A stretch of 63,785 nt of DNA, filler included, from Reclinomonas americana ATCC 50394 (taxonomy: Eukaryota), in the NCBI GenBank assembly GCA_048213135.1. It is 20 parts of 20 records of this genome, joined end to end, with 100 filler letters (N's around TTAATTAATTAA, not from the genome) between each part and the next. Parts side by side here need not be neighbours in the genome. Positions count along the whole stretch, not along the records: positions 29,331 to 33,825 come from AFZH01017439.1; 19 more parts are not named here. One strand, given 5' to 3'. The notes beneath the pieces are model-generated. The model worked only from the letters and a program-made list of their open reading frames with translations. It was not told the DNA's origin and ran no database searches. Shown here in pieces: positions 23,001-60,664 of this stretch; the first letter of the stretch is position 1, and every line of letters begins with the position of its first letter. The position numbers were made by a program, and so were the translations under genes.

Positions 23001-26000
23001 CTCCTTGGTCTGGTCGTTGATCAGCACCGTGCTCACCGGCGTGATCTCGTCTGTGAAGAGAGAGAAGTGAGGAGGAGAATAAAACGCCTTCTCTGTACAA
23101 ATCAAACTCACCGACAAACTTGCCAGCAGCCTGCGCCGCAGCCGCCTTGCGGTGGCTCTCCGCCGCAGCCTCATCGAGACGCGAGCGAGGCATGTTGAAG
23201 CGCTCGGCGACGTTCTCGGCGGTGATGCCCATGGCGCTGCAGAGATGGTGAGCGACTTCAATCAATCAAGGCGGAGGACAGCTGGCGGGACGCAACAGGT
23301 AGCTGTCCGCCGCGGCGCCCGTGGCCTGCGGGTTCGGCTTGAGCTTGAACTCCATCGGGTCCTGCGGGGAAGGGCAAGGGGGAAGGGATGAGAACCAAGC
23401 AAGTTACAAGGAATTGTGTCCCTCACAATCTCATCGTCCAACTACGTCACTCAACTCATTCTCACTCTCCTTTGTTTCCCATTCGTTCCCCAAGCCCAAC
23501 TCTCCACGGTCTGACATTCTCTGCCTCTCTCTCTCAGTCACTTTCCTTGCCACTCTCCTTAAATTTGCCACAGCGCGCTCTTTCTCTCCCCCTTCCCCTC
23601 CCGATCTTCCTTCCTCACTCTTCCTACCTTGCTCGGAAGTCTCCTTCTCGCATTGAGAGCATTATCGTATCACCCGCCACTTCTCTCTCCAACTTTATCG
23701 CTCACTCTGCTTCTCCTTCTCTCTTCCCTCTCCTTTTCCGCCCTTCTCTCTCCATCTCTTTTCCCTCACTGTACTTCTCCTTCTCCTCCTCTCTTCTCCT
23801 CTTTCTCCCTTCCCCCTCCCCTTCACTCACCCTGGACATGCTCTCCATTCCCGCGGCAATGCCAATATCATAGTAGCCCGCCTGAATCGCCGACGCCACA
23901 TCGGCAATGGCCTGCAGGCCCGACGAGCAGAAGCGGTTGATGGTGCGCACGGGCACGGTCTCCGGGATGCCCGCCATCAGGCCGGCCACACGGACGTCGA
24001 TCACGCCACCCTACAGAGGGGGAAGGGGGAAGGGTGAGAAGGGGCAGGGGGGGAAAGAGAGGGGTGAGGGGGAGAGCGAGAGGGCAGAGCGAGAGGGGGA
24101 NNNNNNNNNNNNNNNNNNNNNNNNNNNNNNNNNNNNNNNNNNNNTTAATTAATTAANNNNNNNNNNNNNNNNNNNNNNNNNNNNNNNNNNNNNNNNNNNN
24201 GAGCGAGAGGGGAGAGCGAGAAGGGAGAGCGAGAGGGGAGCGAGAAGGGGAGCGAGAAGGGGAGCGAGAGGGGAGAGCGAGAGGGGGAGTGTGAGAAGGG
24301 GAGAGTGAGAAGGGGAGAGTGAGAAGACGAGAGCGAGAGGGGGAGAAAGAAAGAGAGAGATGTCCTTTGTGGAAAATTCTCACCTGCGGCGGCAGCACAC
24401 AACCAACAGTAATGTCACCAATGTCAGCCGGCTTCACCTGCGGCGCGCGGCGCAGCAGGTCCTCGAACACGTGACGGAGCATGACGTCCGGCGCGGTGTC
24501 CTGCCAATTCACAATCAACAACCATTCCGAAACGCCCATTAACCCCATCTCCTTCCACAAAACCTTGAATCCACCGCGGAAGGCACGGCACACAGCCGTG
24601 CGGCACGAGGCCACAATTACAACGTCGGAGTCGTCGTCGCCCGGGTGGATGACGCTGAGCGGCACGTTCTTGTCGGCGTGCTGCGCCAGGTAGGGCGATG
24701 GGCGGAAAAGCTCGACGCCGAAGCGGTTGTGCCACTCGTCGAGCTTCTGGCGGATGTAGCGGGCGCCGATGGAGTCGGCGTACTTGATGAGGCCGCCGCT
24801 GCAACAAGGGAAAGGGGGAGTGAGGAGAAGGGAAGGAGAAGAAAGGGAAGGAGAAGAAAGGGAAGGAGAAGAAAGGGAGATAAGAAGGAAAAGAAGGGTA
24901 AGAAATGAGACTCACGAAAAAGAACGGGGACTACTGAACGGAAGGAGTGAGCTACAAGAGAAACAGATAACAGGGTTGAAGTTCCGCGCATTAAGAACTT
25001 GTGATGGAAAACAAGGAAGTGGAGCAACACAGACGTTAAGTGTAGAAAGAATGGAAGGAGGACGACGAATCGGAAGGCAGAGCGCAGAATGACGAGACAT
25101 GAGATGACGACTCTGCGAATGCACAACAATGAAGAGCAATAGAGGACTCGAGCTGCAAACATGGAAAAAGACACTCGCCCACGGCAACGAGAATGCAGCA
25201 AGAAGAACGGTGACATCCAGTTCAAATCACAGATCACACGTACCGCCACGACGGGAAGCCCATGCCCATGACCTGCAGCGTGAAGATAGTGGGAGTGAGC
25301 GCGCAGTACCCAATGCACGAAAATCCATTTTCTCAGTCACTTGTTTCCTTTCCATGCAACGCTCGCTGCTCTGAGGGCAACGCTCTCTCGCATCTCTCGC
25401 CATTTCCTGGTTACTCTACCACTCTACTGTCCATATTATGTCAAGCGTCGTGTGTAGTACCGCTTGTCCGTCACTCGAAACTTCCTCCAAAACGGCACGC
25501 CTACCACCGTCCGGAACATGCCCCCCGCCACTCTCAACCCCATTCGCATCCCCTTCCTGTGCTTCTTGTCATCTTCTTCTTGTTCCATACTTCATCTTGT
25601 CTCTCTTGTCCTCCACTCACATTCTTCATCCTCCCTTTCCCCTTATCCACCAATCCCTTAATCTCCCTTGCCCCCAACGCACCGACGCCACATCAATGTC
25701 ACTGGAGCGCACGCAAATGCCCTCATCCAGCACACGGCAGGCCTCGTTGATGACGCTGAACCACACCATCTCCAGAATGTCCTGGTCGGTGAAATTCACC
25801 GGCTGCAACCAAGGAGAGTGAGATGGAACTCCACTGGCAGCCCTTCTCCCAATAACAAACCTCTGGGTTGCCCGACAGGCGACGAGCCTCCTGCAGGTAG
25901 CGCGCCACGCCCTGCGCATCCGCCGGTGCCTCGCGCACGCCCTTCTCGTGCTTGTAGTAGCCGGCGCCCGACTTTTGGCCTGCGAACGGAGCAGAGTGAG

Positions 26001-29000
26001 GACAAGGGACAAAAAGGACTCGCCTAATTGCATGACAAACCGAGACGGTTGTCCTTGACCATCAGCGCCGACGCGTGAATCGGGTACGCACGAGCACCGT
26101 ACGCCTCAGCCTGTGCAGAGGTGAGCAAAGCAGTCACGCATGCATTCATTGCTTCCCGGCTCACCATCAAGCAGTGAGCGTGGTACAAAATGTCAATGCC
26201 AGCCATGTCGCCCATGCGGTACGGCTGCAGAGCAAGCAAGTCAGCACCGCTCACAACAAATATCTTTACCAAATACGCAACTCCCTGCGGCATGCCGAAA
26301 GCATTCACAATGGCATCGATGCGGTACGGCTCCACTCCGCGGTCGGTGAGGAAGGCGCACGAGCTGCGCACAAAAGTGAGCCACACTCCAGTGAGCAAGT
26401 GAGGAGTCCCTCGACAAACCTGGAGTACGGGAAGAAAATGCGGTTGACGGCGAAACCGGCGCAGTTGCCGACCACCACCGGCGTCTTGCCAATGGTCTTG
26501 GCAAAGGCGATCGAGTCGACGAGCACCTGAGCGGAGGTGTGGTCCGAGCGGACAATCTCCAGCAAGGGCATGACGTGGGCGGGGCTGCGCGAAGAGGGGG
26601 AAGGGGGGGGGGGGGGGGAGGGGGAGGAGGAGGAGAGAGAGAGAGAGATATATATCGTACCACGTACGCTACTACGTAGTAGTCGTACTACTCCTGTCGT
26701 ACGTACGTACTACTCCGTCCGTTNNNNNNNNNNNNNNNNNNNNNNNNNNNNNNNNNNNNNNNNNNNNTTAATTAATTAANNNNNNNNNNNNNNNNNNNNN
26801 NNNNNNNNNNNNNNNNNNNNNNNACTCTCTCCTTCCCTCTCTCTCTCTCCTTTCCTCTCTCTCCTTCCCTCTCTCTTTCTCCTTCCTGACCATTGCGGAC
26901 TCGACGCTGTCGATCTGCCTCACCTCAATGACCATGTCGACCTCGCCAAAGCCCGACCAGTCCTGCTGCGGGATAAAATTGCCAATGGCCTTGTCGAACG
27001 CCTCCTGCGACAGGCGCTTGGACTTCAGGCGACCCTCCAGAATACCTGCGAGATATAAGCAAAGTGTGACGGAAGAGAGCACTCCAATCACGTCACCTCG
27101 CACACGACCAATGGCCGCATCCACGCACTGCTGGTTGATCTCCTTGACGCGCACCTGCATGCCCTTCAGCAAGGCGCAGACGGCAATGCCGGCACCCATG
27201 AGACCACCGCCAACGACGGCGAGCTGAGCGGGACAAGATGTGAGCACAAACCAACTTGAACAGAAGGGCAGGAGAAACACACCTTGCGCACGACGCGCGG
27301 CTTCAGGCCCTGATCGGTGACGCCGGGCACGTTGACGGTGGCGCGCTGGGCAAAGAAGAAGTGCACGAGCGAGCTGGCCGTCTCGGTGTTGACGATGCGG
27401 CAGAAGGCCTCGGTTTCCTGAAATGGGGGAAGGGAGGGCAAGGGAGGAGAAGGGAGGAATGAGTGAAGGAGAGAGAGAGAGAGAGAGAGAGCATGCAAGA
27501 ATGCGCAGCGACACGGAGGGAGGCGCAGCGACACGGAGGGAGGCGCAGCGACACGGAGGGAGGCGCAGCGACACGGAGGGAGGCGGAGCGACACGGAGGG
27601 AGGCGGAGCGACACGGAGGGAGGCGGAGCGACACGCAGGAGGCACAGTGACACGGAGGGAGAGCCAGAAGGACACAATCCCTTGTGCTTTTACGCAACAG
27701 CCTGCAATCCAGCCTTGGATCCGCGCGTGGCACCCGCCTCCGTCACATTGATGCACTCGACCGTGTGCGTCACATTCGGGTTCTCCTTCTCCGCACGACG
27801 ACGAGCTGCAAGCTCACGTCAGCCACCCTTCCTCCCAACCCTCCCTTCCCCCTTTCCCCTTGCTCACCCTCCGTGCAAATCATCGACACCACGCCGGCGG
27901 CCTCCAGCTTGCGCGTGTACGTCAGCGACTCGCGGCGGGCCACACGGCCGGCGGCAATGTCGAGCGCCAGCTTGGCGGCGTCGGCGACCAGGGAGGCCGA
28001 GTCGCGGGTGATGGCGTCGATGAGGCCAATCTTGTGCGCGTCGGCGGCCTTGACGTGCTGCGACAGCAGCATCATCTCCAGCGCTTTTTGCACGCCCACC
28101 AGGCGGGGGAGGCGTTGTGTGCCGCCGAAGCCTTTATAGGGAAAGGGGGAGGTGAGGGGAAGGAGAAGAGGAGGTGAGAATAAGGGGAAGGGGAGGTGCG
28201 GAAAAGGAGAGGTGGATGTGAGAAAGAAGAGAAGCGATGTGAGAAAAAGGAGAAGGGGGTGTCAGGTTTAAAGAATGAGGGAAGAAGAAGTACGGCAGTG
28301 GGGGGAGGAGGAAGAATGAGGAGAAGGGGAGGTGAGAATATGGAGAAGGGGAAGTGAAATAATGAGGAGGGGATGTGAGAATAAGGAGAAGGTGGGTCGA
28401 GAAAAAGGAGAAGGGGAGGTGAGAAGAAGGAGATGGGGAGGCGAGAAGAAGGAACGGGGAGGCGAGAAGAAGGAACGGGGAGGTGAGAAGAAGGAGAAGG
28501 GGAGGTGCGGAAAGGGAGAAGGGGAGGTGAGAATCAGGAAAAGGGGAGGTGAGAAGAAGGAGAAGGGGAGGTGCGGAAAGGGAGAAGGGGAGGTGAGAAA
28601 CAGGGGAACGGGAGGTGAGAAAAAAGAGAAGTGAAGGCGAGAAGAAGAGGAGGGGGTGCGAATGAGTAGAAACAGAAAGGACAAAGAAGGACAGCAGTGG
28701 CGGGAGGAGGAAGAACGAGGAGGCAACGAACCGGGGATCAGGCCCAGCTGCAGCTCCGGCAGGCCGACGTTCGTGTTGGGCGTGGCGATGCGGGCGTGGC
28801 ACGACATGGCGAGCTCGAGGCCACCACCTGTTAGAGGGAAAGGTGAGACTCATGCAGGGGACATGACAGAAAGAGCGAGCACACGTACCGAAGGCCATGG
28901 TCTCCAGAGCGGCGACGGTCGGCTTCGAGGCGCTCTCGATGGCGTTGAGGGCGGCATTCGTCTCGCTGATGAAGGGCTCAAAGTCGGCGCCTGGGATGCG

Positions 29001-29462
29001 AAGGAGGGTGAGTGAGGTAAATGGAGAGGGAGGAGAGAGCGCGAGATAAAGGAGGAACGGAGAGAGAGCGAGAAAAAGAGAAAGAAAGCAAGAGAGAATA
29101 TGAGAAAGAGAGACGGGAACGGAGAGAGTGGAGAGAAACATTCGAGAGCAAGAGAAAGAGAGCGAGAGGGAAGAACAGAGACAACTGACAACAAAGTAAG
29201 GCAAACTGAGATTTAAAACGCACATCAACANNNNNNNNNNNNNNNNNNNNNNNNNNNNNNNNNNNNNNNNNNNNTTAATTAATTAANNNNNNNNNNNNNN
29301 NNNNNNNNNNNNNNNNNNNNNNNNNNNNNNCTCTTCCTCTTCCCCTCCTTCCTCTCTCTCTCTCTCTCTCTCTCTGCCCTTCTTTGTCTTCACCTCGGGG
29401 TTGAGGTGATTAAGAATGACTTCCTGTCGACGCTGAGCTGACGATGATGATGATGAGGCCAT
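20078..29462 (-). CDS. Single-chain peroxisomal trifunctional beta-oxidation enzyme: PTS2 + MFP2/AIM1-like hydratase-dehydrogenase fused to a KAT/ACAA1-like 3-ketoacyl-CoA thiolase
   Basis: Exon 29394-29462 encodes [23 protein letters not shown]. Crotonase motifs [12 protein letters not shown] and [24 protein letters not shown] (28.0-28.8 kb). [21 protein letters not shown] and [12 protein letters not shown] (27.2-27.4 kb). [13 protein letters not shown] and [13 protein letters not shown] (26.4-26.6 kb). Exon 24564-24798 reads GGLIKYAD...RPSPYL...[11 protein letters not shown] without a stop. Thiolase motifs [29 protein letters not shown] and [14 protein letters not shown] follow, with TAG at 20078. 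A few exons are hidden in gaps. Confidence 0.9.
20280..21020. repeat. Intronic minisatellite, unit about 120-160 bp
   Basis: Recurring TCTCACTGCACAACGGCTGCTCTCTCACCCCCTCTCATTCTC...CACTCTCCGTCGCTC. Confidence 0.75.
21356..21820. repeat. 12-bp tandem repeat (GAGGAACG[GA]AGA / GAGGAACGCAGT) in a thiolase-region intron
   Basis: Directly visible. Confidence 0.9.
27503..27660. repeat. 20-bp intronic tandem repeat GCG[CG]AGCGACACGGAGGGAG, about 7-8 copies
   Basis: Directly visible. Confidence 0.9.
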
Positions 29463-29836
29463 GATGTATGCGTTGTCTTCCTCGACGACTGTGGCGAGTG
29501 GAGAGAGAGAGTATGCGCGCGCTCGTGCAGCGGGTCGGATTGTTGCGATAATCTCTGCAGGACGCGGATTGCAAAGTGTGAAGTCGACTGGGTTCTCCTT
29601 TGTCTGGAAGGCGGACGGAGAACAAGAAGAGCGGCGTGAAAAGACATTGTCTTTTTACAACGGCATACATCTCTTTCTTGCAACAAGAGAAGTGCGAAGC
29701 TTTACTCCCAACAGCTCCATGTACACCTTTCTGGTGATGTGACTCAGGTCCACATATCTCTTCCGACAAAGACTCAAGCACACCAACACAGAGACACAAT
29801 TAGTCTACTCCAAGCAGTCATCTTCCCATTCAGGAA

Positions 29837-32800
29837 TCACATTACAGAGCACCTGCGCTGCCGACGACCACTTTCGGGACCGTGACGTCGCTGTTGCTGC
29901 TCAGATTGGTCTCGACGGCGCCGGCACTCTGAAAGCCACTTGACTGCTCGCACCGTCTTCGGATCATCTTCACCAAGCACCGCTCGCATACCATCCACAC
30001 ATTCAACCAACAGTGCCTCCGCCTCGGCCCATCGCTGCAGCTTCAAAAGTAGGTCACCGAAGTTGTACATCGTCAGCAATGTGTTATAATGCCCGTCACC
30101 AAGCATCTCTCGCCGACCCTCCAAACACTGACGGTACAAATCAGCAGCTTCTGCCAGTGATACTGGCGTGTTTTGTAGCTCGAGAGAATAAGCAAGATTA
30201 TTCATCGACATGAGAGTGTCTGGATGTCGGTCTCCCAGCGATGCTCGCTCCAACTGCAAACATTCTCGTTTCAGTCGAATCTCCTCCTCCAGACGACTGC
30301 CACCTTGGATACATGCGGCAACATTGCCCATGGACGCCAACGTGTCTGTATGTTCAGCCCCGAGAACAAGTCGCCGCATCTCCCAACACCGTCGCCAGAG
30401 TGCCTCAGCATCAGCAAATCGCTTCTGATTGTAGTGGTGCATGCCCTGCCAATGCAGCGTCCACAGCGAGTCCGGATGACTCTCCCCCAGAGTCACACAC
30501 TGCCTTTCATGACACTGCACCAGCAGAGGCAAGTTACCTGAACAGTAAGCAAGCCACATTAAGCACCGCAACGCATCAATCGTATCCAGCACAGTCATCT
30601 CGCCACTGCCGCACCTCTCCCACTCCTCGCACAAACGCCACGCCTGCTGCCACGTAGCTTCGCGTTCGTCCCACTGACGATGTAACTCAAACAATCGCGC
30701 TTGAGACTTGGCCACCACCATGGCAAGCCACCGTCGCACAGGACTCCTCTCAACATCACCAACACCTCGTTGTTCCCATTCTGTCATACGTAGAACAAGA
30801 GAAGTGACCATTGCCGCGTCAAATCCTCGCGATGGAAGACCTCCACAACGCTGCTCACCAATCCACTCGACAGCGCCACACTGCACCAGCAGCCCATTCA
30901 CACCAACAGCATCACTCGCCCACATTCCATCATCTTCACCCAACAGGCGCCACACCGTGTGCAGCACACCGAGCAGGTCTCGCGACACCAGCAGCGCACC
31001 GTCACTATCATTTCGATCGATGCCACTCAGCACGCAGCACACCAGTCGCAAAATCAATCGCTGCATTCGTGACACTGCATCTCCACATCGTCGCACAATC
31101 CACCCAGCAATCTCATCGTGTACTCGATACTCCATCGCCACATCGCCACCCCCTCCCACATGCTCGCCACACAACACACGCGCGACACTGTCCATGCTGC
31201 CACTTACACCCACCGTCACCAGATTCGACATGCACAAACCCTCCAGCACATCCTCCACTCGATCGTCACCACCAACCACCAACGCATCACGCCTTGCACG
31301 CACTCTTCGCTCCTCCTCCTCACTCACCTCGTCAAACTGCAGTCGCTCACCCACCACCTCGGGCGCGCGTCGTCGCCTCTCCTGTGCCAGCTCATGCAAT
31401 CGTAATCGACGCACACACTGACCCAACTCCACCAGTCGACTTGCCGTCTCCTCATTTTCTGCTACTGCAGCCTGCCTATCATCACCACCACCCACAGCCA
31501 CCGCCATATCGGGTATCACTCGCAACACACCCAGCGCCACTCGCGCGAGTGCAACTGTCACTGGTAAGCCGAGTTCCTTGCACGCCGTGATCAGCACCAA
31601 TAGTCGACGTGCTGCTGCTGTCTGCGACATCACATTGCGTTCCAGCAGCTGCGACAACGCATCACCACCAATACCACTCAGCACCTCCTCCAGTCGCGCT
31701 CCCACCAGCTGTGCTGGCAATTGTGACAGCAACCAGCTGCATGAAGAAGAAGAAGAGAAGAGAGAAGAGTGAGTCTTCTCATCCACACCACGTACTCACT
31801 CACTCACTCACCCAACACAAGCACTCACTCGCAGTGCACTATTCTCCTGTTGTCCACTCTCCAGCGCCTCCACAATCCGTCTTCGTACATCCACCGACAC
31901 CTTGTGAAGCAGTCGCTCCTCCACCAGCTGCATGATGTCCTCGTTCTCCACGCTCTCCACTCGCTGACACTCCGCCTCCGCCTCGTGCATCATCGAGTCA
32001 CGAATCTCATCCGCCACTTGTCCATATCGACTCGTCACCACCACAATCGGTGCCACCATTCCACCTGCGCACAACCAGACACATGTTGCACATCAAGTCA
32101 GGATCAGAACATCCACGCAAGAATGAGAATTCTCTCTCCTGAAACGAACCCTCATCAGCACATTGAACAACACTCCTCACTTGCTCCGCCGATCCCACAT
32201 TGTCCAGCACCATCACTCCGCTCGATGCATGCATCAGCTGTCGCACCAGACGACGTGCTGGCTCCACCTCGCCACTCGCCAGCAGCGCATCCACCTGACC
32301 GGCCATCCTCCGTCCCTCGACTTCGTCCACTCGCATCTGTGCCGTCACAAAGGCGCGCAGACACTCGCCCAGTGCACTCTCCGCCTGCAACATGTTGCAA
32401 GGAGAGGGAGAGAGTCAGAATGACAGGGTAGGAGATGGTGCATCAAGAAGACATGCATGTTCCTCACACACACACACACACCTTCACATGCTCCCTCGCA
32501 TCACCCACATGACCACGCATCTCCACCGACACGGTTGATCCCTTCCATCGACGAGTCGCCACCAACTCGGTCACCAGCAGCTCGGCCAGGAACGACTTGC
32601 CAGTGCCACCCTCGCCCGTCAGCACCACCATGATTGGTTGATGGGCTGTGCAAGAAATCATCCATCACAGACAACGTGATAAGAGACACACGAATACGGA
32701 GACGGAAGGAAGGGAGAAAGAGAAGGAACACCCAACCATCCACTGCCGCCACAATGCGCATGGCAAGTGAGGCAGCCAGTGCACGCCGACTCGGGAAGCG

Positions 32801-33715
32801 GAATACAGTCACTGGATTCAAGGTGCGGGCGATGAGTGGTGTCTTGGGTGGTCGCCTGCTGTCAGGAGCTGTGCGGTACGAAGAGAGTGAGCACGCACTC
32901 AATGCACATCCAATGCAAGTCCATCATGGAACACACCTACAGCTGAGGGAGAAGAAGGCGACATGCTCAGCGTGTCAAGCCGCTGGTGCACACGCTCCAT
33001 CTCCACCCGCATTGTCGCCTGCACTACCTGGTAATCAAATGCCAGTGAGAAACAATATCTGCAAGCGACCGCATCTGCATGCAGATCCACATAACTTGCT
33101 CCACATTGGCCGCCATCGATGCCTGGTCTGCTTGACTCAGTGCACCTGCATTTACACAATAAAGACAGCATCAGCTTTCACATCAATCAAATCATCCAGA
33201 CACACATGCACCAGCCATCTCTCTCTCGTCACTCACCATCACGAGCCTCGTTCAGCTGCACCACCACCTCCTCCTCCACATCCCTGCCAATCTGCAGCTG
33301 CCGCACAAGCTGGTGCAACTCGCCTTCTCCTCCTCCTCCGGCACCGAGCAGAGGCACAAAGAGTGCACGAGCTCGTGCGGGACTCGCCTGCTCAAACACC
33401 TCCCTCATGCGCTCAATTGCATTGCGCTGTGTACGATGAGAAAGTGAGAGGTACAATCACACAAAGAGAGAGATCACACTTCTCCTCCTCCCCATCTCCT
33501 TCTCACACACACTCACCACATCACCAACTGGAATCAGACGATCCGGCTCTTCTCTCGGGTGCTCTCGATGACCCGCCAGCAGCAAGATCGAGCAGCACAG
33601 CATCGCATCAAATGAACTGCAGTCGTGCAACTGGCCTCGCTGATGCCACTCGCGCACCAACTGACGCTCCCTGTCGTTCAACTGGACACACATGTCCACT
33701 CCGTCTGGCATGGTT
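29837..33715 (-). CDS. NLR-like STAND NTPase-TPR protein, copy 1 (alpha subtype; first two exons hidden in a gap)
   Basis: Walker A GEGGTGKS (~32595-32618), Walker B VMVLDNV, sensor-1 IVVVTSR, MHD-like YRVHDE, kinesin-light-chain-type TPRs (LGxxHxDTL), C-terminus RRQRRCSVM. Confidence 0.8.
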
Positions 33716-34283
33716 CTGCATGTGGGAAAGGCACAAAGAAAGAGAGGATGCTGGTGAGTGAGGGAATGTGTGTGACAAGAAAGTGGAGGTATTCATCAGG
33801 GATAGAATGTGGAGTCGTGTGTGGCNNNNNNNNNNNNNNNNNNNNNNNNNNNNNNNNNNNNNNNNNNNNTTAATTAATTAANNNNNNNNNNNNNNNNNNN
33901 NNNNNNNNNNNNNNNNNNNNNNNNNGTTGACTGTGGCGAGTGGAGAGAGTGTGTGTGTGCGCGCTCGTGCAGCGACGGATTGTTGCGATAATCTCAGCAG
34001 GACGCGGATTGCAAAGTGTGAAGTCGACTGGGTTCTCCTTTGTCTGGAAGGCGGACGGAGAACAAGAAGAGCGGCGTGAAAGGACATTGTTTTTTTACAA
34101 CGGCATACATGTGCCGTTTCTTGCAACAAGAGAAGTGCGAAGCTTCACACCCAACAGCTCCATGCACACCGTTCTGGTAATGTGACTCAGGTCCACATAT
34201 CTCTGACCGACAAAGCAGACCCAAGCACACCAACACACAGACACAATTAGTCTACTCCAAACAGTCATCTTCTTATTCAGGAA

Positions 34284-37200
34284 TCACATTACAGAGCACC
34301 TGCGCTGCCGACGACCATTTTCGGGATCGTGACGTCGCTGCTGCTGCTCAGATTGGTCTAGGCGACGTCGGCACTCCTCCAACCACTCGATGGCATCCAC
34401 AGTCTTCGGATCATCTTCACCAAGCACCGCTCGCCGACCATCCACACACTCTACTAGCAGTGCCTCTGCCTCGGCCCATCGATGCTGCCTCATGAACAGC
34501 CTGCCGCAGTTACAGATCGACTGCAGTGTGTTAACATGCCTGTCACCCAGCACCTCGCGTCGTCCCTCCAAGCACTCACGCAACAAATCAACAGCTTCCG
34601 TGCTCTGTTGATTGAGAGAATAAGCAAGATTATTCATCGACATGAAAGTGTCTGGATGCCGATCTCCGAGACCTGCTCGCCTCAACTGCAAGCATTTTCT
34701 GTTCAGCTGAATCACTTCCTCCAGGCGACTGCCATCTTGGATACATGCGGCAACATTGCCCATGGACATCAACGTGTCTGGATGCTCAGCTCCAAGAACC
34801 AGTCGCCGCATTTCCCAGCACCGTCGGAAGAGTGTCTCAGCATCAGCAAATCGCTTTTGACTGTACTGGTGCCTGCCCTGCCACTGCAGAGTCGATAACG
34901 AGTCTGGATGGCACTCGCCCAACGCCACACACTGCCGCTCATGACATTGCACCAGCAGTGGCAAATTGTCTGAATAGTAAGCAACCCACATCAAGCACCG
35001 CATTGCGTCAATCTTATCTAGCACAGTCATCTCGCCACTGTCATCCCTCTCCCAATCCTCGTACAAATACCACGCCTGTTCCCACGCAGCTCGGCGATCA
35101 TGCCAATCCTGTTGCATATTAAACAACCATGCGTGACACTTTGTCATCACAAAACAAGACCGTCGTCGCACTGGACTCATTACAACACCGCCACCTCCAC
35201 GTGCACGTCTCTCGCACCGTGTCACGAAATGTTCAAGGAAATTGACCACCGCTGTGCCGAATCCAACAGATGGCAGCTTTCCCCACGCACGTTTCTCGCC
35301 AACCCACTCAACCGCTCCACACTGCACCACCAACCCGTTCACACCAACGGCCTCTTTCGCCCACATGCCACCGTCGACCCCACCCAACCGTCGCCACACT
35401 GTGCGAAGCACATCGAGCAGGTCTCGCAACACCAACAGCACACCGTCACTGTCCATCTGTGAATCAATGCCAGTGAGCACACAGCACACCAGTCGCATAA
35501 TCAGTCGCTGCGTTCGCGACACGGCATCTCCACATCGTCTCACAATCCACCCAGCAATCTCATCGTGTACTCGATACTCCATCGCCACGTTACTCTCTCC
35601 CACATGCTCACCACAGAGCACACGCGCAACACTGTCCATGCTGCTACTGACGCCCACCGTCACCAGATTCGACACGCACAGACCCTCCAGCACATCCTCA
35701 ACTCCTTCGTCATCACCCACCAACTCATTGCGCCGTGCACGCACTCGTCGCTCCTCCTCCTCACTCATCTCGTCAAACTGCAGTCTCTCACCCACCACCT
35801 GTGGCGCACGCCGTCGTCTCTCCTGTGCCAGCCGATGCAATCGCAGTCGACGCACACACTGACCCAACTCCACCAGTCGGCCTGCTGCCTCCTCATCTTC
35901 ATCCGTTGCCGCCACGTCGTCTTCATCCACACTCGCAGCCCGCTCATTCTCATCGTCATCCACAGCCATGGTCATATCGGGAATCACTCGCAGCACACCG
36001 AGAGCCACTCGCGCAAGTGCCACTGTCACTGGCAAGCCGAGTTCCTTGCACGCCGTGATCAACACCAACAGTCGACGTGCTGCCGCTGTCTGCGATATCA
36101 CATTGCGTTCCAGTAGCTGTGACAGTGCATCGCCACCAACGCCACTCAGCACCTCCTCCAGTTGCGCGCCCATCAGCTGTGCTGCTGATTGAGACAGCAA
36201 CCAGCTGCATGACGAGAAGAGAAGGAGAGAAGAGTGAGTCTTTTCATCCATAAGCCGCTCACTCACTCATAGCACTCACCCAACACAAGCACTCACACGC
36301 AGTGCACTCTTCTCCTGTTGTCCACTCTCCAGCGCCTCCACGATCCGCCGTCGCACATCCAGCGACACTATGCCGCGAAGTCGCTCCTCCACCAGCTGCT
36401 CAATGTCCTCGTTCTCCACATTCCCCACTCGCACAGACTCCACATCCGCCTCGTGCATCATCGAGTCACAGATCTCATCCGCCACTCGCCCATATCGACT
36501 CGTCACCACCACAATCGGTGCCACTATTCCGCCTGCAGAAGGACACGCACGCATGATGCACATCAAGTCAGGATCAAACATCCAAGCAAGAATGAGAACT
36601 TTCTCATGACACACACACACCCTCGTCAGCACACTGAACACTCCTCACTTGCTCCACCGATCCCACATTGTCCAGCACCATCACTCCACTCGATGCGTGC
36701 ATCAGCTGTCGCAGCAGTCGACGTGCTGGCTCCACCTCGCCACTCGCCAGCAGCGCGTCCACCTGGCCCGCCATCTTGCGTCCCTCTACTTCATCCACTC
36801 GCATCTGTGCCGTCACAAAGGCACGCAGACACTCACCCAGAGCACTCTCCGCCTGCAGCATTTGGCATGGAGAGAGAGAGAGAGTCGGAATGACAGCATC
36901 ATGAAAAACAACATGCATGTTCCTCACACACACCTTCACATGCTCCCTCGCATCACCCACATGACCACGCATCTCCACCGACACGGTGGATCCCTTCCAC
37001 CGACGACTGGCAAGCAATGCGGTCACCAGCAGCTCGGCCAGGAATGACTTGCCAGCGCCACCATCACCCGTGAGCACCACCATGATTGGATGGTGTGCTG
37101 CACAAGAATCATCCACCACAGACAACACGATGAGGCACGCGAATGTAGAGAAGGGAGAGGGAGAATGAGAAGTAACACCCAACCTTCAACAGCATCCACA

Positions 37201-38514
37201 ATGCGCGTGGCGAGTGAAGCTGCCAGTGCACGCCGACTGGGGAAGCGGAATGCAGTCACTGGATTCACGGTGCGGGCGATGAGTGGTGTCATGGGCGGAT
37301 GGCTGCTGTCTGGTGTTGTGTGGCACGGAGAGGAGTGGGTGTGAGCTTAGATATGCACATGCATTGCATGTCCATCATGGAACACACCTACAGCTGAGGG
37401 AGAAGAGGGAAAGATGCTCAATGTGCTCAGCTGCTGTCGCATGAGCTCCATCTGCGCGAGCAGTACGGCCTGACTCTGATCAATCACATCCAGTTAGAAA
37501 CATGGAGCCATCTGCAAGCGACCGCCTCCACATGCAAATCCACTCAACTTGCTCCATATGTGCCAGCAGCAATGACTGGTCTGCTTGACTCAGTGCACCT
37601 GAATTCACACACACAACCAAGACAGCATCAGCTTCCATATTGAACCAAATCATCCAAGCACCGGTCATCTCTCTCTTTCTCTCTCTGTCTCCACTCACCA
37701 TCACGAGCCTCGTTCAGCTGCACCGCCAACTCCTCCTCCACATCCCTGCCAATCTGCAACTGCCGCACAAGCTGGTGCAGTTCGCCCTCTCCTCCTCTTC
37801 CGTCACCGAGCAGAGGCACAAAGAGTGCACGAGCTCGGGCAGGACTCGCTTGCTCAACCACCTCCCTCATTCGCTCAATCGCATTGCGCTGTGGACAATG
37901 AGAGATTGAGAGACATAATCACACAAAGAGAGAGTTCACGCCCTCCTCCTTCCATCTCATTCTCAGACTCACCACATCACCAGCTGGAATCAGACGATCT
38001 GGCTCGTCTCTCGGGTGCTCTCGATGACCCGCCAANNNNNNNNNNNNNNNNNNNNNNNNNNNNNNNNNNNNNNNNNNNNTTAATTAATTAANNNNNNNNN
38101 NNNNNNNNNNNNNNNNNNNNNNNNNNNNNNNNNNNACATCTCCATTCTGCACCTTCCCATCACGTGCTTCTACATTCCTTCCTCACACACTCACCGCACA
38201 TCACGCTCACTTGGTGCCTTGCACCACTCGGCAACATGATTCACACCGGGATATGAATCGAGAAACGCCGGCAGCACTTGCTCAAGCTTGGATTGCAGAG
38301 CGCGGGTGCACGGACGAGACAGACCTTTGACAAGGCGCATCGCACATTCCTCATCACCAGCATCGTGATGATGACTGCACGAGAGGAGAGAGGAGGAGAG
38401 TGACAGGGAATGAATCACACACAATGCGAGAATGGTGATGATGATGACGCATCTGACAAGTAACACAACGAGAGAGACACGCAACTCACGCGACACTCCA
38501 CTCCCACTCGCCAT
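34284..38514 (-). CDS. NLR-like STAND NTPase-TPR protein, copy 2 (beta subtype)
   Basis: ATG at 38514 (MASGSG...), GDGGAGKS, VMVLDNV, VVTSR, YRVHDE, TPRs, C-terminus RRQRRCSVM. One exon is partly in a gap. Confidence 0.8.
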
Positions 38515-55952: not shown

Positions 55953-58900
55953 TCACATTACAGAGCATCTGCGCTGCCGACGACCATTTTCGGGATCGTG
56001 ACGTCGCTGCTGCTGCTCAGATTGGTCTAGGCGACGTCGGCACTCAGCCAGCCACTTCATGGAATCTTCCGTACGCTCGTCCTCGTCACCAAGCACCGCT
56101 CGCCGACCATCCACACACTCTACTAGCAGTGCCTCTGCCTCGGCCCATCGATGCTGCCTCATGAACAGCCTGCCGCAGTTACAGATCGACTGCAGTGTGT
56201 TAACATGCCTGTCACCCAGCACCTCGCGTCGTCCCTCCAAGCACTCACGCAACAAATCAACAGCTTCCGTGCTCTGTTGATTGAGAGAATTGGCAAGATT
56301 ATTCATCGACATGAAAGTGTCTGGATGCCGATCTCCCAGCGATGCTCGCTTCAGCTGCAAGCATTCTCGTTCCAGTTGAATCACTTCCTCCAGGCGACTG
56401 CCATCTTGGATAGAAAATGCAACATTACTCATGAGTGCCAACGTGTCGGGATGCCAAGCTCCAAGAACCAGTCTTCGCAACTCCCAACAACGTCGATAGA
56501 GTGTCTCAGCATCAGCAAATCGCTTTTGACTGTACTGGTGCCTGCCCTGCCACTGCAGAGTCGATAACGAGTCTGGATGGCACTCGCCCAACGCCACACA
56601 CTGCCGCTCATGACATTGCACCAGCAGTGGCAAGTTGCCTGAATAGTAAGCAACCCACATCAAGCAGCGCATTGCGTCAATCTTATCTAGCACAGTCATC
56701 TCGCCACTGTCATCCCTCTCCCAATCCTCGCACAAATACCACGCCTGTTCCCACGCTGCTCGGCGATCATGCCAATTCTGTCGCATATTAAACAACCATG
56801 CGTGACACTTTGTCATCACAAAACAAGACCGTCGTCGCACTGGACTCATTACAACACCGCCACCTCCACGTGCACGTCTCTCGCACCGTGTCACGAAATG
56901 TTCAAGGAAATTGACCACCGCTGTGCCGAATCCAACAGATGGCAGCTTTCCCCACGCACGTTTCTCGCCAACCCACTCAACCGCCCCACACTGCACCAGC
57001 AGTCCATTCACACCAACACTATCATTCGCCCACATGCCACCGTCGACCCCACCCAACCGTCGCCACACTGTGCGAAGCACATCGAGCAGGTCTCGCAACA
57101 CCAACAGCACACCGTCACTGTCCATCTGTGAATCAATGCCACCCAACACACAACACACCAGTCGCACGATCAGTCGCTGCGTCCGTGACACTGCATCTCC
57201 ACATCGTCTCACAATCCACCCAGCAATCTCATCGTGTACTCGATACTCCATCGCCACGTTACTCTCTCCCACATGCTCACCACAGAGCACACGCGCAACA
57301 CTGTCCATGCTGCCACTGACGCCCACCGTCACCAGATTCGACACGCACAGACCCTCCAGCACATCTACCACTCCGTCGTCACCGCCAGCACCCACCAGCT
57401 CATCACGCCGTTCACGCACTCTCTCCTCCTCCTCCTCACTCATCTCGTCAAACTGCAGTCTCTCACCCACCACCTCGGGTGCACGCCTCCGCCTCTCCTG
57501 TGCCAGCCAATGCAATCGCAGTCGACGCACACACTGACTCAACTCCACCAGTCGGCCTGCTGCCTCCTCATCTTCATCCGTTGCCGCCACGTCGTCTTCA
57601 TCCACACTCGCAGCCCGCTCATTCTCATCGTCATCCACAGCCATGGTCATATCGGGAATCACTCGCAACACACCCATCGCCACTCGTGCGAGTGCAACTG
57701 TCACAGGCAAGCCGAGTTCCTTGCACGCCGTGATCAGCACCAACAGTCGACGTGCTGCCGCTGTCTGCGATATCACATTGCGCTCCAGCAGCTTCGACAG
57801 CGCATCACCACGGATGCCACTCAGAGCCTCCTCCAGTCGTGCACCCACCAGCTGTGCTGGCGACCGTGACAGCAACCAGCTGCATGGCGAAGAAAATGGG
57901 AGAAGAGAGAGAAGAGAGTGAGTTTTCTCATCCACGAGCCACTCACTCACTCAGCACTCACCCAACACAAGCACTTACTCGCAGTGCACTCTTCTCCTGC
58001 TGTCCACTCTCCAGCGCCTCCACGATCCGCCTTCGCACGTCCACTGACACCTTGTGGAGCAGTCGCTCCTCGACCAGCTGCACCATGTCCTACAACAAAC
58101 AAAACACTTCATTCACCACATTCCAGTAATGCGACAAATGTCCACAAATCCCTTGCCGNNNNNNNNNNNNNNNNNNNNNNNNNNNNNNNNNNNNNNNNNN
58201 NNTTAATTAATTAANNNNNNNNNNNNNNNNNNNNNNNNNNNNNNNNNNNNNNNNNNNNTTGACCTACCGACAAGTAACCTTGCGGGCACTGGTTGTACAT
58301 CCTGCTGGCATTGCATTTCTGTGAGTGAGGGTCATTCTCCACATTCTCCACTCGCACACACTCCACCTCCGCCTCGTGCATCATCGAGTCACGAATCTCA
58401 TCCGCCACTCGCCCATATCGACTCGTCAGCACCACTATCGGTGCCACCATGCCACCTGTACACAGACACACATGATGCATATCAAGTCAGGATCCAACAT
58501 CCAAGCAAGAATGACGATTCTCAATCTCGTGACACACTCACCCTCATTAGCACATTGAACAACATTCCTCACTTGCTTCATCGATCCCACATTGTCCAGC
58601 ACCATCACTCCACTCGATGCATGCATCAGCTGTCGCACCAGACGACGAGCTGGCTCCACTTCGCCACTCGCCAACAGCGCATCCACCTGACCGGCCATCC
58701 TTCGTCCCTCCACTTCATCCACTCGCATCTGCGCCGTCACAAAGGCACGCAGACACTCGCCCAGAGCGCTCTCCGCCTGCAGCATTTGGCATGGAGAGAG
58801 AGAGAGAGAGAGTCGGAATGACAGCATCATGAAAGAAAACATGCATGATCCTCCGCACACCATCACATGCTCCCTCGCATCACCCACATGACCGCGCATC

Positions 58901-60664
58901 TCCACTGACACGGCCGATCCTTTCCACCGACGGGTCGACAGCAACTCGGTCACCAGCAGCTCGGCCAGGAACGACTTGCCAGTGCCACCATCGCCCGTCA
59001 GCACCACCATCATTGGCTGGTGTGCTGCGCAGGAATCATCCACCACAGACAACACGATGAGACACATCAATGTGGAGAAGGAAGGAAGCGAGAAGGACCT
59101 CCAAACCTTCAACAGCATCCACAATGCGCGCGGCGAGTGAGGCCGCCAGCGCACGCCGACTTGGGAAGCGGAATGCGGTCACTGGATCGACGGTGCGGGC
59201 GATGAGTGGTATCTTCGGTGGGTGACTGCTGTCTGGTGCTGTGTGGCACGGAGAGGAGTGTGAGCACAGCAGTGCACATTCCACGCAGATCCAGCATGGA
59301 ACACACCTGCAGCTGAGGGAGAGGAGGGAGAGATGCTCAACGTATCAAATCGTTGGTGCACACGCTCCATCTGCATATGCACAGTATGCATTTCCATCCG
59401 TATCTGATCAATCGACACACAAGTGAGAAACAGAGAGGCACCTGCAAGTAACTGCCTTCCCTCATGCAAACTCACTCAACTTGCTCCACATTAGCTGCTA
59501 TCGACGCTTGGTCAGCCTGACTCAGTGCACCTGCATTCACACACAACCAGACAGCATCAGCTTCCACATTCAACCAAATCATCCACACTCAAACACCAGC
59601 CATCTCTCTCCCTTCACTCACCATCACGAGCCTCGTTCAGCTGCACCACCAATTCCTCCTCCACATCCCTGCCGATCTGCAGCCGCCGCACAAGCTGGTG
59701 CAACTCGCCTTCACCTCCTCCTACGTCACCGAGCAGAGGCACAAAGAGTGCACGAGCTCGTGCAGGACTCGCCTGCTCAAACACCTCCCTCATTCGCACA
59801 ATCGCATTGCGCTGTGACAATAAAAGAGTGAGAGAAAGAATCACGAAGAGAGAGAATCACACTCCTCTTCCTTCCATCTCCTTCCCATTCTCACACACTT
59901 ACCACATCGCCCGCAGGAATCAGACGATCCGGCTCGTCCCTCGGGTGCTCTCGCTGACCCGCCAACAGCAAGATTGAGCAGCACAGCATCGCATCAAACG
60001 AACTGCAGTCGTGCAGCTGGCCTCGCTGGCGCCACTCGCACACCGTCTGCTGCTCCTTCTCGTTCAGCTGGACGCACATGTCCACTCCGTCTGGCATGGT
60101 GCTGCATGTGGGGAAAGGCACCAAGAAAGAGAGGATGCTGGTGAGTGAGGGAATGTGTGTGACAAGAACGAGGATGCATTCATCAGAGATAGAATGAGGA
60201 GTTGAGTGGAGAGACGATGAAGAGCGTGAGAATGGGGGAGAAAGAGATGACCAACGCGTCACCATCTGCCACTTGCTTGCGGCAATCTTCTCTTCTCTCA
60301 TCTGCATCTTGCCATCGAGTGCTTCTGCATCCTCCCCCCTCACTCACCGCACATCACGCTCACTCGGCGTCTTGCACCACTCATCGACGTGATTCACACC
60401 GGGATACGAATCGAGAAACGCCGGCAGCACTTGCTCGAGTTTGAATTGCAGAGCGCGGGTGCATGGACGAGAAAGGGCCTTGACAAGGCGCATCGCGCAT
60501 TCCTCGTCACCAGCATCGTGATGATGACTGCACGAGAGAGGAGAGAGAGGAGGAGAGAGCCAAAAGGAACGTCAGACAAAATGCGGGAATGATGATGATG
60601 CATCTGACAACAACACAATGAGAGAGACACGCAACTCACGCGGCACTCCACTCCCACTCGCCAT
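55953..60664 (-). CDS. NLR-like STAND NTPase-TPR protein, copy 6 (beta subtype; most complete, with an insertion at ~58091-58331)
   Basis: About 11 exons join in phase from ATG 60664. Walker A GDGGTGKS at 58972-58995, VMVLDNV, VVLTSR, YRVHDE, TPRs, RRQRRCSVM. Confidence 0.8.

What the first reader, a model, noticed from the sequence alone, without database searches (positions are those of the whole stretch)
29837..29870. Every NLR-like copy ends in a polybasic CaaX box (GRRQRR-CSVM/CSIM): prenylated receptors
Seen: all six ORFs stop directly after RRQRRCS[V/I]M (stops at 29837, 34284, 40844, 47442, 51347, 55953), while the adjacent TPR varies a lot. The only change is the conservative V>I. 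Known: CaaX with X=Met is a farnesyltransferase substrate, and a preceding basic patch targets K-Ras-type proteins to acidic membranes. Characterised lipid-anchored NLRs such as plant RPS5 use N-terminal acylation. Inference: the TPR sensor end is tethered to a membrane (plasma membrane or phagosome). I do not know of a described C-terminally prenylated NLR family.
Basis: partly seen in the sequence, partly recalled or inferred. Interest (0 to 1): 0.8.

Follow-up and report, generated by a model that had tools for sequence, protein, structure and literature searches.

The report
Polybasic CaaX tail on NLR-like genes
Six tandem copies of an orphan eukaryotic NLR-like gene (P-loop NTPase plus TPR repeats) all end in an arginine-rich tail and a textbook farnesylation signal, so the proteins are probably lipid-anchored to membranes, but their conservation does not prove it.

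Summary
Exactly six minus-strand terminal exons end in ...GRRQRRCS[V/I]M followed by TGA, five with CSVM and one with CSIM.

The genes are real eukaryotic genes. Copy 1 gives a clean 9-exon GT-AG model of 1069 codons. It carries Walker A, Walker B and a sensor-1-like motif. By profile comparison these align to the nucleotide-binding domain of NB-ARC-TPR proteins (probability 92.6%; the reversed sequence and 20 of 20 shuffles reach 1% or less). TPR_10 and TPR_12 score above Pfam cut-off.

CSVM is the farnesylated CaaX of human Rheb, and CSIM that of prelamin A. The tail is basic, and its last 11 residues are modelled with low confidence.

The tail is no more conserved than the 3' flank (2/30 against 36/182 variable columns, p=0.12). 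Its synonymous divergence is also low. The tail therefore lies in a low-divergence 3' block, and the six copies count as one event.

No relatives, RNA data or genome could be found. Farnesylation is likely (about 0.55) but untested. I rate it a new variant of a known kind, of moderate interest.

The parts
29837..29869 (-). Copy 1 tail: GRRQRRCSVM plus TGA stop
34284..34316 (-). Copy 2 tail: GRRQRRCSVM plus TGA
40844..40876 (-). Copy 3 tail: GRRQRRCSIM plus TGA (the V>I variant)
47442..47474 (-). Copy 4 tail: GRRQRRCSVM plus TGA
51347..51379 (-). Copy 5 tail: GRRQRRCSVM plus TGA
55953..55985 (-). Copy 6 tail: GRRQRRCSVM plus TGA (synonymous AGG>AGA in the last Arg codon)
29837..31736 (-). Copy 1 terminal exon 9 (632 codons plus stop): orphan helical region, TPR_10/TPR_12 repeats, about 30-residue basic tail
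31812..33711 (-). Copy 1 exons 1-8 with eight GT-AG introns of 68-97 nt. ATG at 33711. Walker A is in exon 6 (32482-32645), Walker B in exon 7 (32150-32384), and the VVVTSR sensor-1-like motif in exon 8 (31812-32064)
34284..37888 (-). Copy 2, exons 2-9 (exon 1 partly lost in the gap at 38036-38135)
40844..45071 (-). Copy 3, exons 1-9 (a gap at 43559-43658 lies between exons 6 and 7)
47442..50713 (-). Copy 4, exons 1-6 and exon 9 (exons 7-8 and the start of exon 9 lost in the gap at 49232-49331)
51347..53172 (-). Copy 5, exon 9 only (upstream exons absent behind the gap at 53173-53272)
55953..60097 (-). Copy 6, exons 1-9 (a gap at 58159-58258 lies inside exon 8)
29440..29836 (-). Copy 1 3' flank. 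It is non-coding (indels of 1, 2 and 8 nt among copies) but unusually conserved (90-93.5% identity to the other copies). Together with the last 90 nt of coding sequence it forms a low-divergence block. A TGTAA motif lies about 190 nt after the stop

Best explanation
The window holds a tandem array of six paralogues of an orphan eukaryotic STAND-type gene. Each has an N-terminal region of unknown type, a P-loop NTPase related to the NB-ARC nucleotide-binding domain, an orphan helical region, TPR_10/TPR_12 repeats, and then a hydrophilic arginine-rich tail of about 30 residues ending in CSVM or CSIM.

The most likely working is as follows. Cytosolic farnesyltransferase farnesylates the Cys four residues from the end, as X=Met directs. 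The last three residues are clipped and the Cys is methylated at the ER. The farnesyl group, together with the adjacent RRQRR patch (10 Arg and net charge +6 over the last 30 residues), then holds the C-terminal TPR end on acidic cytosolic membrane leaflets, as in K-Ras4B. Oligomerisation of the NTPase would multiply this weak anchor into a stable membrane platform.

Shown: the motif itself, its identity to proven substrates, its position at the true end of an intact gene model, and a low-confidence (probably flexible) tail in the model. Inferred: the modification, the membrane targeted, and any receptor or immune role.
For: (1) 6 of 6 copies end RRQRRCS[V/I]M followed by TGA, and nowhere else in the window does this pattern occur.
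(2) CSVM is the CaaX of human Rheb, described as its farnesylation signal (PMC7255682, passage). CSIM is the prelamin A CaaX, whose C661S change abolishes farnesylation (PMC5946110, passages).
(3) The gene is intact. The copy 1 model has 9 exons, eight GT-AG introns of 68-97 nt and 1069 codons, and its only stop is the terminal TGA. The terminal exons show purifying selection, with dN/dS 0.23-0.47.
(4) Indels of 1, 2 and 8 nt appear only after the stop. The gaps in the last 660 coding columns (15 columns) keep every copy in frame, so translation ends there.
(5) In the AlphaFold2 model the TPR part (about residues 400-610) has block-mean pLDDT of 79-97, while residues 622-632 are below 50. This fits an exposed flexible tail.
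(6) Composition makes chance unlikely. With this protein's own residue frequencies (C 2.8%, R+K 12%), my arithmetic gives about 2e-3 for an FTase-type CaaX and about 1e-3 for 4 or more basic residues among the 5 before it, so about 2e-6 jointly. In a small control, 0 of 43 TPR-protein hits and 0 of 120 thiolase hits end in CXXX.
(7) Polybasic plus lipid is an established way to put oligomerising innate-immune NTPases on membranes. GBP1 needs its CaaX and a KMRRRK patch (PMC5727416). NLRP3 needs a polybasic region plus S-acylated Cys-130 (PMC11392533).
Against: Conservation gives no independent support.
- The tail is no more conserved than the non-coding flank (p=0.12).
- Synonymous divergence in the tail (pS 0.13, and 0.044 in the last 10 codons) is far below the rest of the exon (0.26-0.32). 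dN/dS in the tail (0.24-0.33) is unremarkable.
- Copies 1 and 4 are 100% identical over 81 nt of tail but only 79-84% identical in the exon body. This points to gene conversion or a younger 3' block.
- All six copies therefore count as a single event.

No relatives exist with which to test deeper retention. The exhaustive search of 1.84 billion representatives gave 0 hits for the non-TPR part. The word-based search gave none for the NTPase ORF. The tail pattern has no match in metagenome contigs.

The mature 3' end of the mRNA is unverified. Whether the organism has farnesyltransferase could not be checked, because no genome is held. The taxon is unresolved.

Arg-rich patches alone can act as nuclear signals. 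The NLRP3 polybasic peptide fused to GFP went to the nucleus (PMC11392533).
Confidence: 0.55

Rival explanations
1. The tail is inherited but functionally idle. A CaaX-like ending arose once in the ancestor of the array. It persists only because the 3' end of the unit is young or homogenised by gene conversion. The protein is not prenylated to any useful extent, or prenylation has no role.
For: The tail lies in a low-divergence block that runs on for 300 nt or more into non-coding DNA. Synonymous sites in the tail are as conserved as the flank. Copies 1 and 4 share an identical 81-nt tail despite 79-84% identity in the exon body. No divergent relatives retain the motif, because none were found.
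Against: The conjunction of an exact Rheb or prelamin A CaaX with 4 of 5 preceding residues basic, at the end of a low-confidence hydrophilic tail, is improbable by chance (about 2e-6 by my arithmetic). 0 of 163 control proteins end in CXXX. From general knowledge, recalled: farnesyltransferase recognises short exposed C-terminal tetrapeptides largely irrespective of the protein body, so such an ending is likely to be modified whether or not it was selected for.
Confidence: 0.2
2. The arginine-rich tail works mainly as something else, such as a nuclear or nucleolar localisation signal or a nucleic-acid or acidic-partner binding patch. The terminal Cys is incidental or used differently, for example for S-acylation.
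For: The tail holds 10 Arg in 30 residues, in RRRR, RR and RRQRR clusters. A polybasic NLRP3 peptide on GFP localised to the nucleus without a second signal (PMC11392533). Prelamin A combines a nuclear signal with the same CSIM box (PMC5946110), so a nuclear-envelope destination is also conceivable.
Against: It does not explain why the ORF stops exactly three residues after the Cys, with a2=V/I and X=M, in 6 of 6 copies. A CaaX box is itself the classical second signal partnered with polybasic patches (Hancock 1990 and Heo 2006, seen only as citations in PMC11392533; their content is recalled).
Confidence: 0.1
3. Gene-model or assembly artefact. The copies are unexpressed or decaying, or the mRNA uses another 3' end. 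One candidate is the donor-like CAG|GTGCTC that overlaps the Cys codon. In that case the CaaX would never be the protein's C-terminus. Some 'copies' may also be alleles or mis-scaffolded contigs.
For: The scaffold is built from short contigs with 19 placeholder gaps, and two copies are truncated. A GT lies at the Arg-Cys codon junction in 5 of 6 copies. There is no transcript evidence.
Against: Copy 1 has a clean 1069-codon model. dN/dS is well below 1 across the exon. There are no frame-breaking indels in the six terminal exons, whereas indels of 1, 2 and 8 nt occur in the flank, so no conserved downstream coding exon lies within about 300 nt. The putative donor GT is destroyed by the synonymous AGG>AGA change in copy 6.
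Confidence: 0.1

Closest known systems
K-Ras4B-, Rheb- and prelamin-A-type C-terminal farnesylation signals
   Same: Cys at position -4, a2 = V/I and X = Met. CSVM is identical to human Rheb and CSIM to prelamin A. A basic patch lies directly upstream, as in K-Ras4B (recalled; Hancock 1990 was seen only as a citation). A hydrophilic linker precedes the box.
   Different: It is carried by a STAND NTPase-TPR protein of about 1070 residues, not a small GTPase or a lamin. The basic residues are all Arg, not Lys. The modification is untested.
Human GBP1 (farnesylated, polybasic, oligomerising innate-immune GTPase)
   Same: An oligomerising nucleotide-switch defence protein whose targeting needs both a C-terminal CaaX box and an adjacent Arg-rich patch (KMRRRK, R584-586) in a flexible C-terminal region (PMC5727416, abstract and passages).
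   Different: GBP1 is a dynamin-like GTPase with no TPR or STAND domain. There is no sequence relationship, and the resemblance is in the targeting device only.
NLRP3 (polybasic region plus S-acylated Cys-130)
   Same: A bona fide NLR that binds membranes through a polybasic patch plus a lipid on a nearby Cys, with oligomer avidity proposed to strengthen binding (PMC11392533, abstract and passages).
   Different: In NLRP3 the lipid is a reversible thioester acyl group, the site is internal (between PYD and NACHT), and the NTPase is a NACHT domain. Here the signal is an irreversible-type prenyl box at the extreme C-terminus, after the repeat domain.
Plant CC-NLRs RPS5 and RPS2 (N-terminal acylation)
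   Same: NLRs tethered to the plasma membrane by a lipid (review PMC3801107, one figure-legend passage).
   Different: Their lipid is N-terminal myristoyl or palmitoyl on the signalling end. Copy 1 here starts MPDG (no Gly2), and its candidate lipid is on the sensor end.
NB-ARC-TPR candidate receptors of brown algae, Acanthamoeba and fungi
   Same: The same overall architecture (P-loop STAND NTPase followed by TPR) and a local tandem expansion. Ectocarpus NB-ARC proteins are all fused to a C-terminal TPR (PMC3341825, passages). Acanthamoeba has one homologue (PMC4053784, passages).
   Different: There is no Pfam NB-ARC match here. Here the whole TPR region lies in one terminal exon; the Ectocarpus paper's title and abstract report exon shuffling in that family. 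The Ectocarpus paper's main text has 0 occurrences of prenyl, farnesyl, CaaX or myristoyl.
Nephrocystin-3 (NPHP3)
   Same: A P-loop NTPase plus TPR_10/12-type repeats. Weak sub-threshold Pfam matches occur here: TPR_NPHP3 at 28.1 bits against a cut-off of 100, and NPHP3_N at 15.6 against 24.8. NPHP3 is lipidated (N-myristoylated) for membrane and ciliary targeting; this is recalled and comes from no call.
   Different: The Pfam scores are far below cut-off, so it is not a member. The NPHP3 lipid is N-terminal.

Membership tests
Farnesyltransferase CaaX substrates | Cys exactly four residues from the C-terminus, followed directly by a stop codon | tested here: met
   6 of 6 copies read TGC-TCT-GTA/ATA-ATG-TGA. 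The only stop in the 1070-codon translation of the copy 1 model is this TGA.
Farnesyltransferase CaaX substrates | a2 aliphatic and X = M/S/Q/A/C (farnesyl rather than geranylgeranyl) | tested here: met
   a2 = V (5 copies) or I (1 copy), and X = M. The tetrapeptides are identical to Rheb (CSVM) and prelamin A (CSIM), described as farnesylated. The X-residue rule itself is recalled.
Farnesyltransferase CaaX substrates | Accessible, flexible stretch upstream of the box | tested here: inconclusive
   The AlphaFold2 model gives pLDDT below 50 for residues 622-632 and 66 for the 611-620 block, after a confident TPR. Low confidence is only indirect evidence of disorder, and the alignment had just 6 near-identical rows.
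Farnesyltransferase CaaX substrates | Actual thioether prenylation, aaX cleavage and methylation; enzyme present in the organism | not testable with these tools
   No genome is held. PrePS and GPS-Lipid are not available.
K-Ras4B-type polybasic second signal | Cluster of basic residues within about 10-20 residues upstream of the CaaX Cys | tested here: met
   RRQRR lies directly before the Cys. The last 30 residues hold 10 K+R against 4 D+E. GRRQRR is invariant in 6 of 6 copies.
STAND / NLR-like NTPases | P-loop NTPase with Walker A, Walker B and sensor-1 in STAND order, homologous to the NB-ARC or NACHT nucleotide-binding domain | tested here: met
   Motifs GEGGTGKS, VMVLDNV and VVVTSR are read in exons 6-8. 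Local hhalign of the computed spliced NTPase region against 6 NB-ARC-TPR proteins gives probability 88.8% (E 2.5e-6), or 92.6% for the first 220 residues, with the three motifs aligned. The reversed sequence and 20 of 20 shuffles reach 1.0% or less. NACHT or other P-loop families were not run as competing templates.
NB-ARC (Pfam PF00931) specifically | Significant match to the NB-ARC model, and recognisable ARC/winged-helix region with GLPL and MHD motifs | tested here: not met
   PF00931 is not listed for any of 41 upstream ORFs at E of 0.05 or better, nor for the terminal exons. Only sub-threshold AAA_16 (24.1 against 32.6 bits), nSTAND3 (20.4 against 27.2) and NACHT (14.1 against 26.7) appear. 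The region after the NTPase shows hhalign probability 0.05-0.1% against NB-ARC-TPR proteins. GLPL-like (ELGLPV) and MHD-like (RVHDE) strings exist but are my own reading, and hhalign did not align them to those positions.
STAND / NLR-like NTPases | C-terminal repeat (sensor) domain | tested here: met
   In the four copies scanned, TPR_10 has E 9.6e-26 to 5.3e-22 (77-89 bits against cut-off 27.5) and TPR_12 scores 72-80 bits against 30.1. This region of the model has high pLDDT.
STAND / NLR-like NTPases | Ligand-triggered oligomerisation and a defence or cell-death output | not testable with these tools
   The N-terminal exons 1-5 have no family match. No 30-codon window reaches dN/dS above 1 (maximum 0.80), so diversifying selection on the sensor is not shown.

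The most novel reading that the evidence does not exclude
This would be the first NLR-like (STAND NTPase-TPR) receptor family whose sensor end carries a K-Ras4B-type farnesyl plus poly-arginine anchor. The receptors would patrol the inner face of acidic membranes (plasma membrane, endosome or phagosome). On nucleotide-driven oligomerisation they would form a multivalent lipid-anchored platform, a convergent counterpart of the farnesylated GBP1 coat and of S-acylated NLRP3. The family would sit in a deeply divergent, unsampled eukaryotic lineage.
Probability: 0.45. Interest if true: 0.6.

Novelty: new variant of a known kind. Interest (0 to 1): 0.42.

Why it matters
Where NLR-type receptors sit in the cell shapes what they can sense. 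Known cases use N-terminal acylation (the plant receptors RPS5 and RPS2) or internal S-acylation plus a polybasic patch (NLRP3). C-terminal CaaX prenylation is known for other innate-immune proteins such as GBP1.

A STAND-TPR family with a CaaX box after its repeat domain would add a third, irreversible anchoring mode. It would orient the sensor end toward the membrane. It would also show that microbial eukaryotes independently combined these modules.

The claim is cheap to test with a GFP-tail fusion, with and without C>S and a farnesyltransferase inhibitor. The family is also notable as a complete orphan at sequence level outside its TPR: 0 hits among 1.84 billion representative proteins.

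Tried and rejected
- Whole genome: none is held for this window. I therefore could not look for farnesyltransferase, RCE1 or ICMT, or for further paralogues.
- Expression and 3' end: no RNA holder was listed for 29400-32000.
- Relatives:
  - The word-based search with a whole terminal exon found 43 proteins, matching the TPR part only (46% identity or less, 39% coverage or less). None of the 43 ends in CXXX.
  - The exhaustive phmmer search with the 411 non-TPR residues gave 0 hits.
  - The word-based search with the read-through NTPase ORF against longer proteins gave none at E of 10 or better.
  - The degenerate tail pattern has 0 matches in metagenome contigs.
- Earlier scan notes: nothing by place, by words or by sequence.
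- NB-ARC membership: Pfam was negative. hhalign of the post-NTPase region gave probability 0.05%. Local phmmer of the spliced NTPase region against the 43 TPR hits had a best E of 0.11.
- Structure: the first 362 residues of the terminal exon are below pLDDT 50 (apart from one isolated residue) and were not used. I ran no fold search, because only the TPR was confident.
- ESM Atlas: the non-TPR part looks TPR-like (score 0.95), which is a lead only.
- Taxon: the thiolase exon gave about 70% identity to unnamed and MAG sequences and 65% to Plasmodiophora and Mycena, which does not resolve it. There is no tRNA and no Rfam match.
- Considered and rejected:
  - An apparent frameshift in copy 1 exon 3 is in fact a 68-nt intron.
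  - I first read ELGLPV as the GLPL motif, but hhalign does not support that placement.
  - PTS1 peroxisomal signal: SVM lacks the basic -2 residue (the rule is recalled).
- One paper look-up (PMC7735620) had no CSIM in its main text and was not used.
Full report
**Observation**

The minus strand at 29837-29870 reads GRRQRRCSVM followed by TGA. Under the standard code, the only six stop-to-stop frames of 400 aa or more between 28 and 60 kb lie on the minus strand. Five end RRQRRCSVM, and the one at 40844 ends RRQRRCSIM. A degenerate 30-nt pattern for this ending finds exactly these six sites, and none in 100 shuffles. In the last ten codons the only differences are V>I in copy 3 and a synonymous AGG>AGA in copy 6.

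Two qualifications apply. The copies are tandem paralogues, so they represent one inherited feature. The window is also a scaffold of short contigs joined by 19 identical N44-TTAATTAATTAA-N44 linkers. Copy number and order are therefore not secure, and copies 4 and 5 are truncated by gaps.

**What the genes are**

The long ORFs are terminal exons. Reading the minus strand upstream of copy 1 and joining exons by coordinates gives a clean model:
- 9 exons, with ATG at 33711 and stop at 29837;
- eight GT-AG introns of 68-97 nt;
- 1069 codons, with no internal stop.

An apparent frameshift in exon 3 turned out to be a 68-nt intron with a CTAAC/CTCAC-like branch site.

Exons 6-8 carry a Walker A (GEGGTGKS), a Walker B (VMVLDNV) and a sensor-1-like VVVTSR motif. 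Pfam gives only sub-threshold generic P-loop or STAND matches for these exons: AAA_16 at 24.1 bits against a cut-off of 32.6, nSTAND3 at 20.4 against 27.2, and NACHT at 14.1 against 26.7. There is no NB-ARC match.

A local profile comparison of the computed spliced NTPase region against six NB-ARC-TPR proteins gives probability 88.8% (E 2.5e-6). For the first 220 residues it gives 92.6%, with the three motifs aligned. The reversed sequence and 20 of 20 shuffles stay at 1.0% or less.

The C-terminal 200 residues or so are TPR_10/TPR_12, well above Pfam cut-offs, and are modelled confidently.

The roughly 400 residues between the NTPase and the TPR are an orphan:
- 0 hits among 1.84 billion representative proteins;
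- hhalign probability 0.05-0.1% against NB-ARC-TPR proteins;
- pLDDT below 50 in the model.

The read-through NTPase ORF also found nothing in the word-based search. 'NLR-like' (STAND NTPase plus TPR) is therefore supported, but 'NB-ARC' membership is not.

The organism is a eukaryote with short GT-AG introns. Its taxon could not be resolved.

**The tail as a prenylation signal**

CSVM is the CaaX of human Rheb, described as its farnesylation signal (PMC7255682, one passage). CSIM is the prelamin A box, where fusions ending in CSIM are farnesylated and C661S (SSIM) is not (PMC5946110, passages).

Four of the five residues before the Cys are Arg. The last 30 residues hold 10 Arg against 4 acidic residues. 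In the model the last TPR-capping helix is followed by residues of low confidence: 622-632 are below pLDDT 50.

With the protein's own composition, my arithmetic puts an FTase-type CaaX at about 2e-3. It puts 4 or more basic residues among the 5 before it at about 1e-3, so about 2e-6 jointly. This is a post hoc calculation under an independence model. As a small control, 0 of 43 TPR-protein hits and 0 of 120 thiolase hits end in CXXX.

Indels of 1, 2 and 8 nt start after the stop, while the six terminal exons keep frame. TGA never occurs in frame within the 1069 codons. The ORF therefore most likely ends where it appears to.

**Does conservation show function?**

It does not. Mean pairwise identity by region is as follows:

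| Region | Mean pairwise identity |
|---|---|
| Last 60 coding nt | 95.6% |
| First 60 nt after the stop | 91.4% |
| Next 240 nt of flank | 86-92% |
| TPR | 72-89% |
| Introns | 80.6% |

Variable columns are:

| Region | Variable columns |
|---|---|
| Last 30 coding nt | 2/30 |
| 3' flank (+4 to +203) | 36/182 |
| TPR | 211/555 |

The tail differs from the TPR (p=0.0003) but not from the flank (p=0.12). The flank itself is more conserved than the TPR (p=4e-6).

The Nei-Gojobori counts tell the same story. Synonymous divergence is 0.13 in the last 30 codons and 0.044 in the last 10, against 0.26-0.32 elsewhere in the exon. Tail dN/dS (0.24-0.33) is like the rest (0.23-0.47).

Copies 1 and 4 share a 100% identical 81-nt tail but are only 79-84% identical in the exon body.

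The tail thus lies in a low-divergence 3' block that spans the stop codon. The block is either homogenised by gene conversion or constrained at the nucleotide level.

No 30-codon window reaches dN/dS above 1 (maximum 0.80). Diversifying selection on the sensor is therefore not shown either.

**Mechanism and rivals**

The best reading has confidence about 0.55. It runs: farnesylation at Cys(-4), aaX processing, and electrostatic help from RRQRR hold the TPR end on acidic cytosolic leaflets. STAND oligomerisation then adds avidity.

The logic is borrowed from established cases. GBP1 needs its CaaX box and an Arg-rich patch in a flexible C-terminal region to reach bacteria and damaged vacuoles (PMC5727416, abstract and passages). 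NLRP3 needs a polybasic region plus S-acylated Cys-130, with oligomer avidity proposed (PMC11392533, abstract and passages).

The rivals are:
- an inherited but idle tail (0.2);
- an Arg-rich tail used mainly as a nuclear or other signal (0.1), noting that the NLRP3 polybasic peptide alone went to the nucleus;
- a gene-model, expression or assembly artefact (0.1).

**Comparison with what is known, and novelty**

Plant NLRs RPS5 and RPS2 use N-terminal acylation (review PMC3801107, one passage).

NB-ARC-TPR candidate receptors are described in Ectocarpus (PMC3341825), Acanthamoeba (PMC4053784) and fungi. The Ectocarpus paper's main text has 0 occurrences of prenyl, farnesyl, CaaX or myristoyl. 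A fungal-immunity review (PMC10197012) has 0 occurrences of prenyl, CaaX, farnesyl, myristoyl, palmitoyl or 'lipid anchor'.

I ran three full-text searches:
- CaaX / NLR / prenylation / NB-ARC;
- farnesylation / NLR / C-terminal CaaX / STAND;
- prenylated / NLR / NACHT / CaaX.

They listed 15 of 106, 12 of 452 and 12 of 88 papers. None of the listed titles or abstracts describes a C-terminally prenylated NLR. These listings are not exhaustive.

CaaX boxes on other innate sensors (OAS1 p46, ZAP-L) and N-myristoylated NPHP3 are recalled, not taken from a call.

I rate this a new variant of a known kind: a known targeting device on a known class of receptor architecture, in a combination not found in print by those searches.

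**Verdict**

The motif is real and is a strong candidate farnesylation signal. The evidence offered for selection on it does not hold. Nothing beyond the sequence itself could be brought to bear, because there were no relatives, no RNA data and no genome. Interest is moderate (0.42).

Noticed in passing
window 7885-62775 (19 sites, e.g. 29231-29330, 33826-33925): Every gap is an identical 100-nt unit, N44-TTAATTAATTAA-N44 (a six-frame stop linker). Gaps are often flanked by AG/CT microsatellites. The window is a scaffold of 1.5-6 kb contigs, so the order and number of the tandem copies are uncertain.
   Followed up: partly
window 38194-40192, 45506-46469, 53331-55292, 60347-62430 (minus strand): A second multi-exon gene ('X') is co-duplicated upstream of four of the six NLR-like copies. 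Its copies are more alike (88-96% identity) than the NLR-like exon bodies. It has no Pfam match. The ESM Atlas gives only weak leads (scores of 0.85 or less) to CATCHR-type tethering subunits (Dor1/COG8, Exo84_C, Vps54). Whether it is a separate gene or an optional 5' part of the NLR-like gene was not resolved.
   Followed up: partly
window 29440-29926 and the equivalent stretch in the other five copies: There is a low-divergence island. The last 90 coding nt plus at least 300 nt of non-coding 3' flank are 90-100% identical among copies, while introns are 80.6% and synonymous sites in the exon differ by 26-32%. This suggests gene conversion or a constrained 3' UTR. A TGTAA motif lies about 190 nt after the stop.
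   Followed up: partly
window 21097-23261 (-) and about 26000-29200 (-): Adjacent fatty-acid beta-oxidation genes lie on the same strand: a thiolase (Thiolase_N, Thiolase_C) and a multifunctional enoyl-CoA hydratase / 3-hydroxyacyl-CoA dehydrogenase (ECH_1, 3HCDH_N, 3HCDH). This resembles a fadA/fadB-like pairing. The thiolase exon is about 70% identical to unnamed and MAG thiolases and 65% to Plasmodiophora and Mycena proteins.
   Followed up: partly
window 14763-16202 (+): ORF pieces here carry Fn3_assoc and CHB_HEX_C_1 domains (E 3e-6 to 7e-10). They belong to a plus-strand gene whose nature was not examined. ORFs open in all three frames at 13088-14550 suggest low-complexity sequence.
   Followed up: no
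window 63252-63785 (-): A tandem low-complexity repeat is open in all three minus-strand frames (SLRSSLRS...-type translation) at the right edge of the window.
   Followed up: no
window 1-63785: GC and AT skew are strong and strand-linked, changing sign near 10-12 kb and 24-30 kb and following the direction of the genes. Pyrimidine-rich (CT)n tracts lie on the coding strand in introns and between genes.
   Followed up: no
window 30400-30999 and equivalents (exon 9 middle part): The most divergent part of the gene is not the TPR but the orphan region just upstream of it. It is 76-79% identical to copy 1 at nucleotide level, with window dN/dS up to 0.80. This region has no relatives and no confident fold.
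   Followed up: partly
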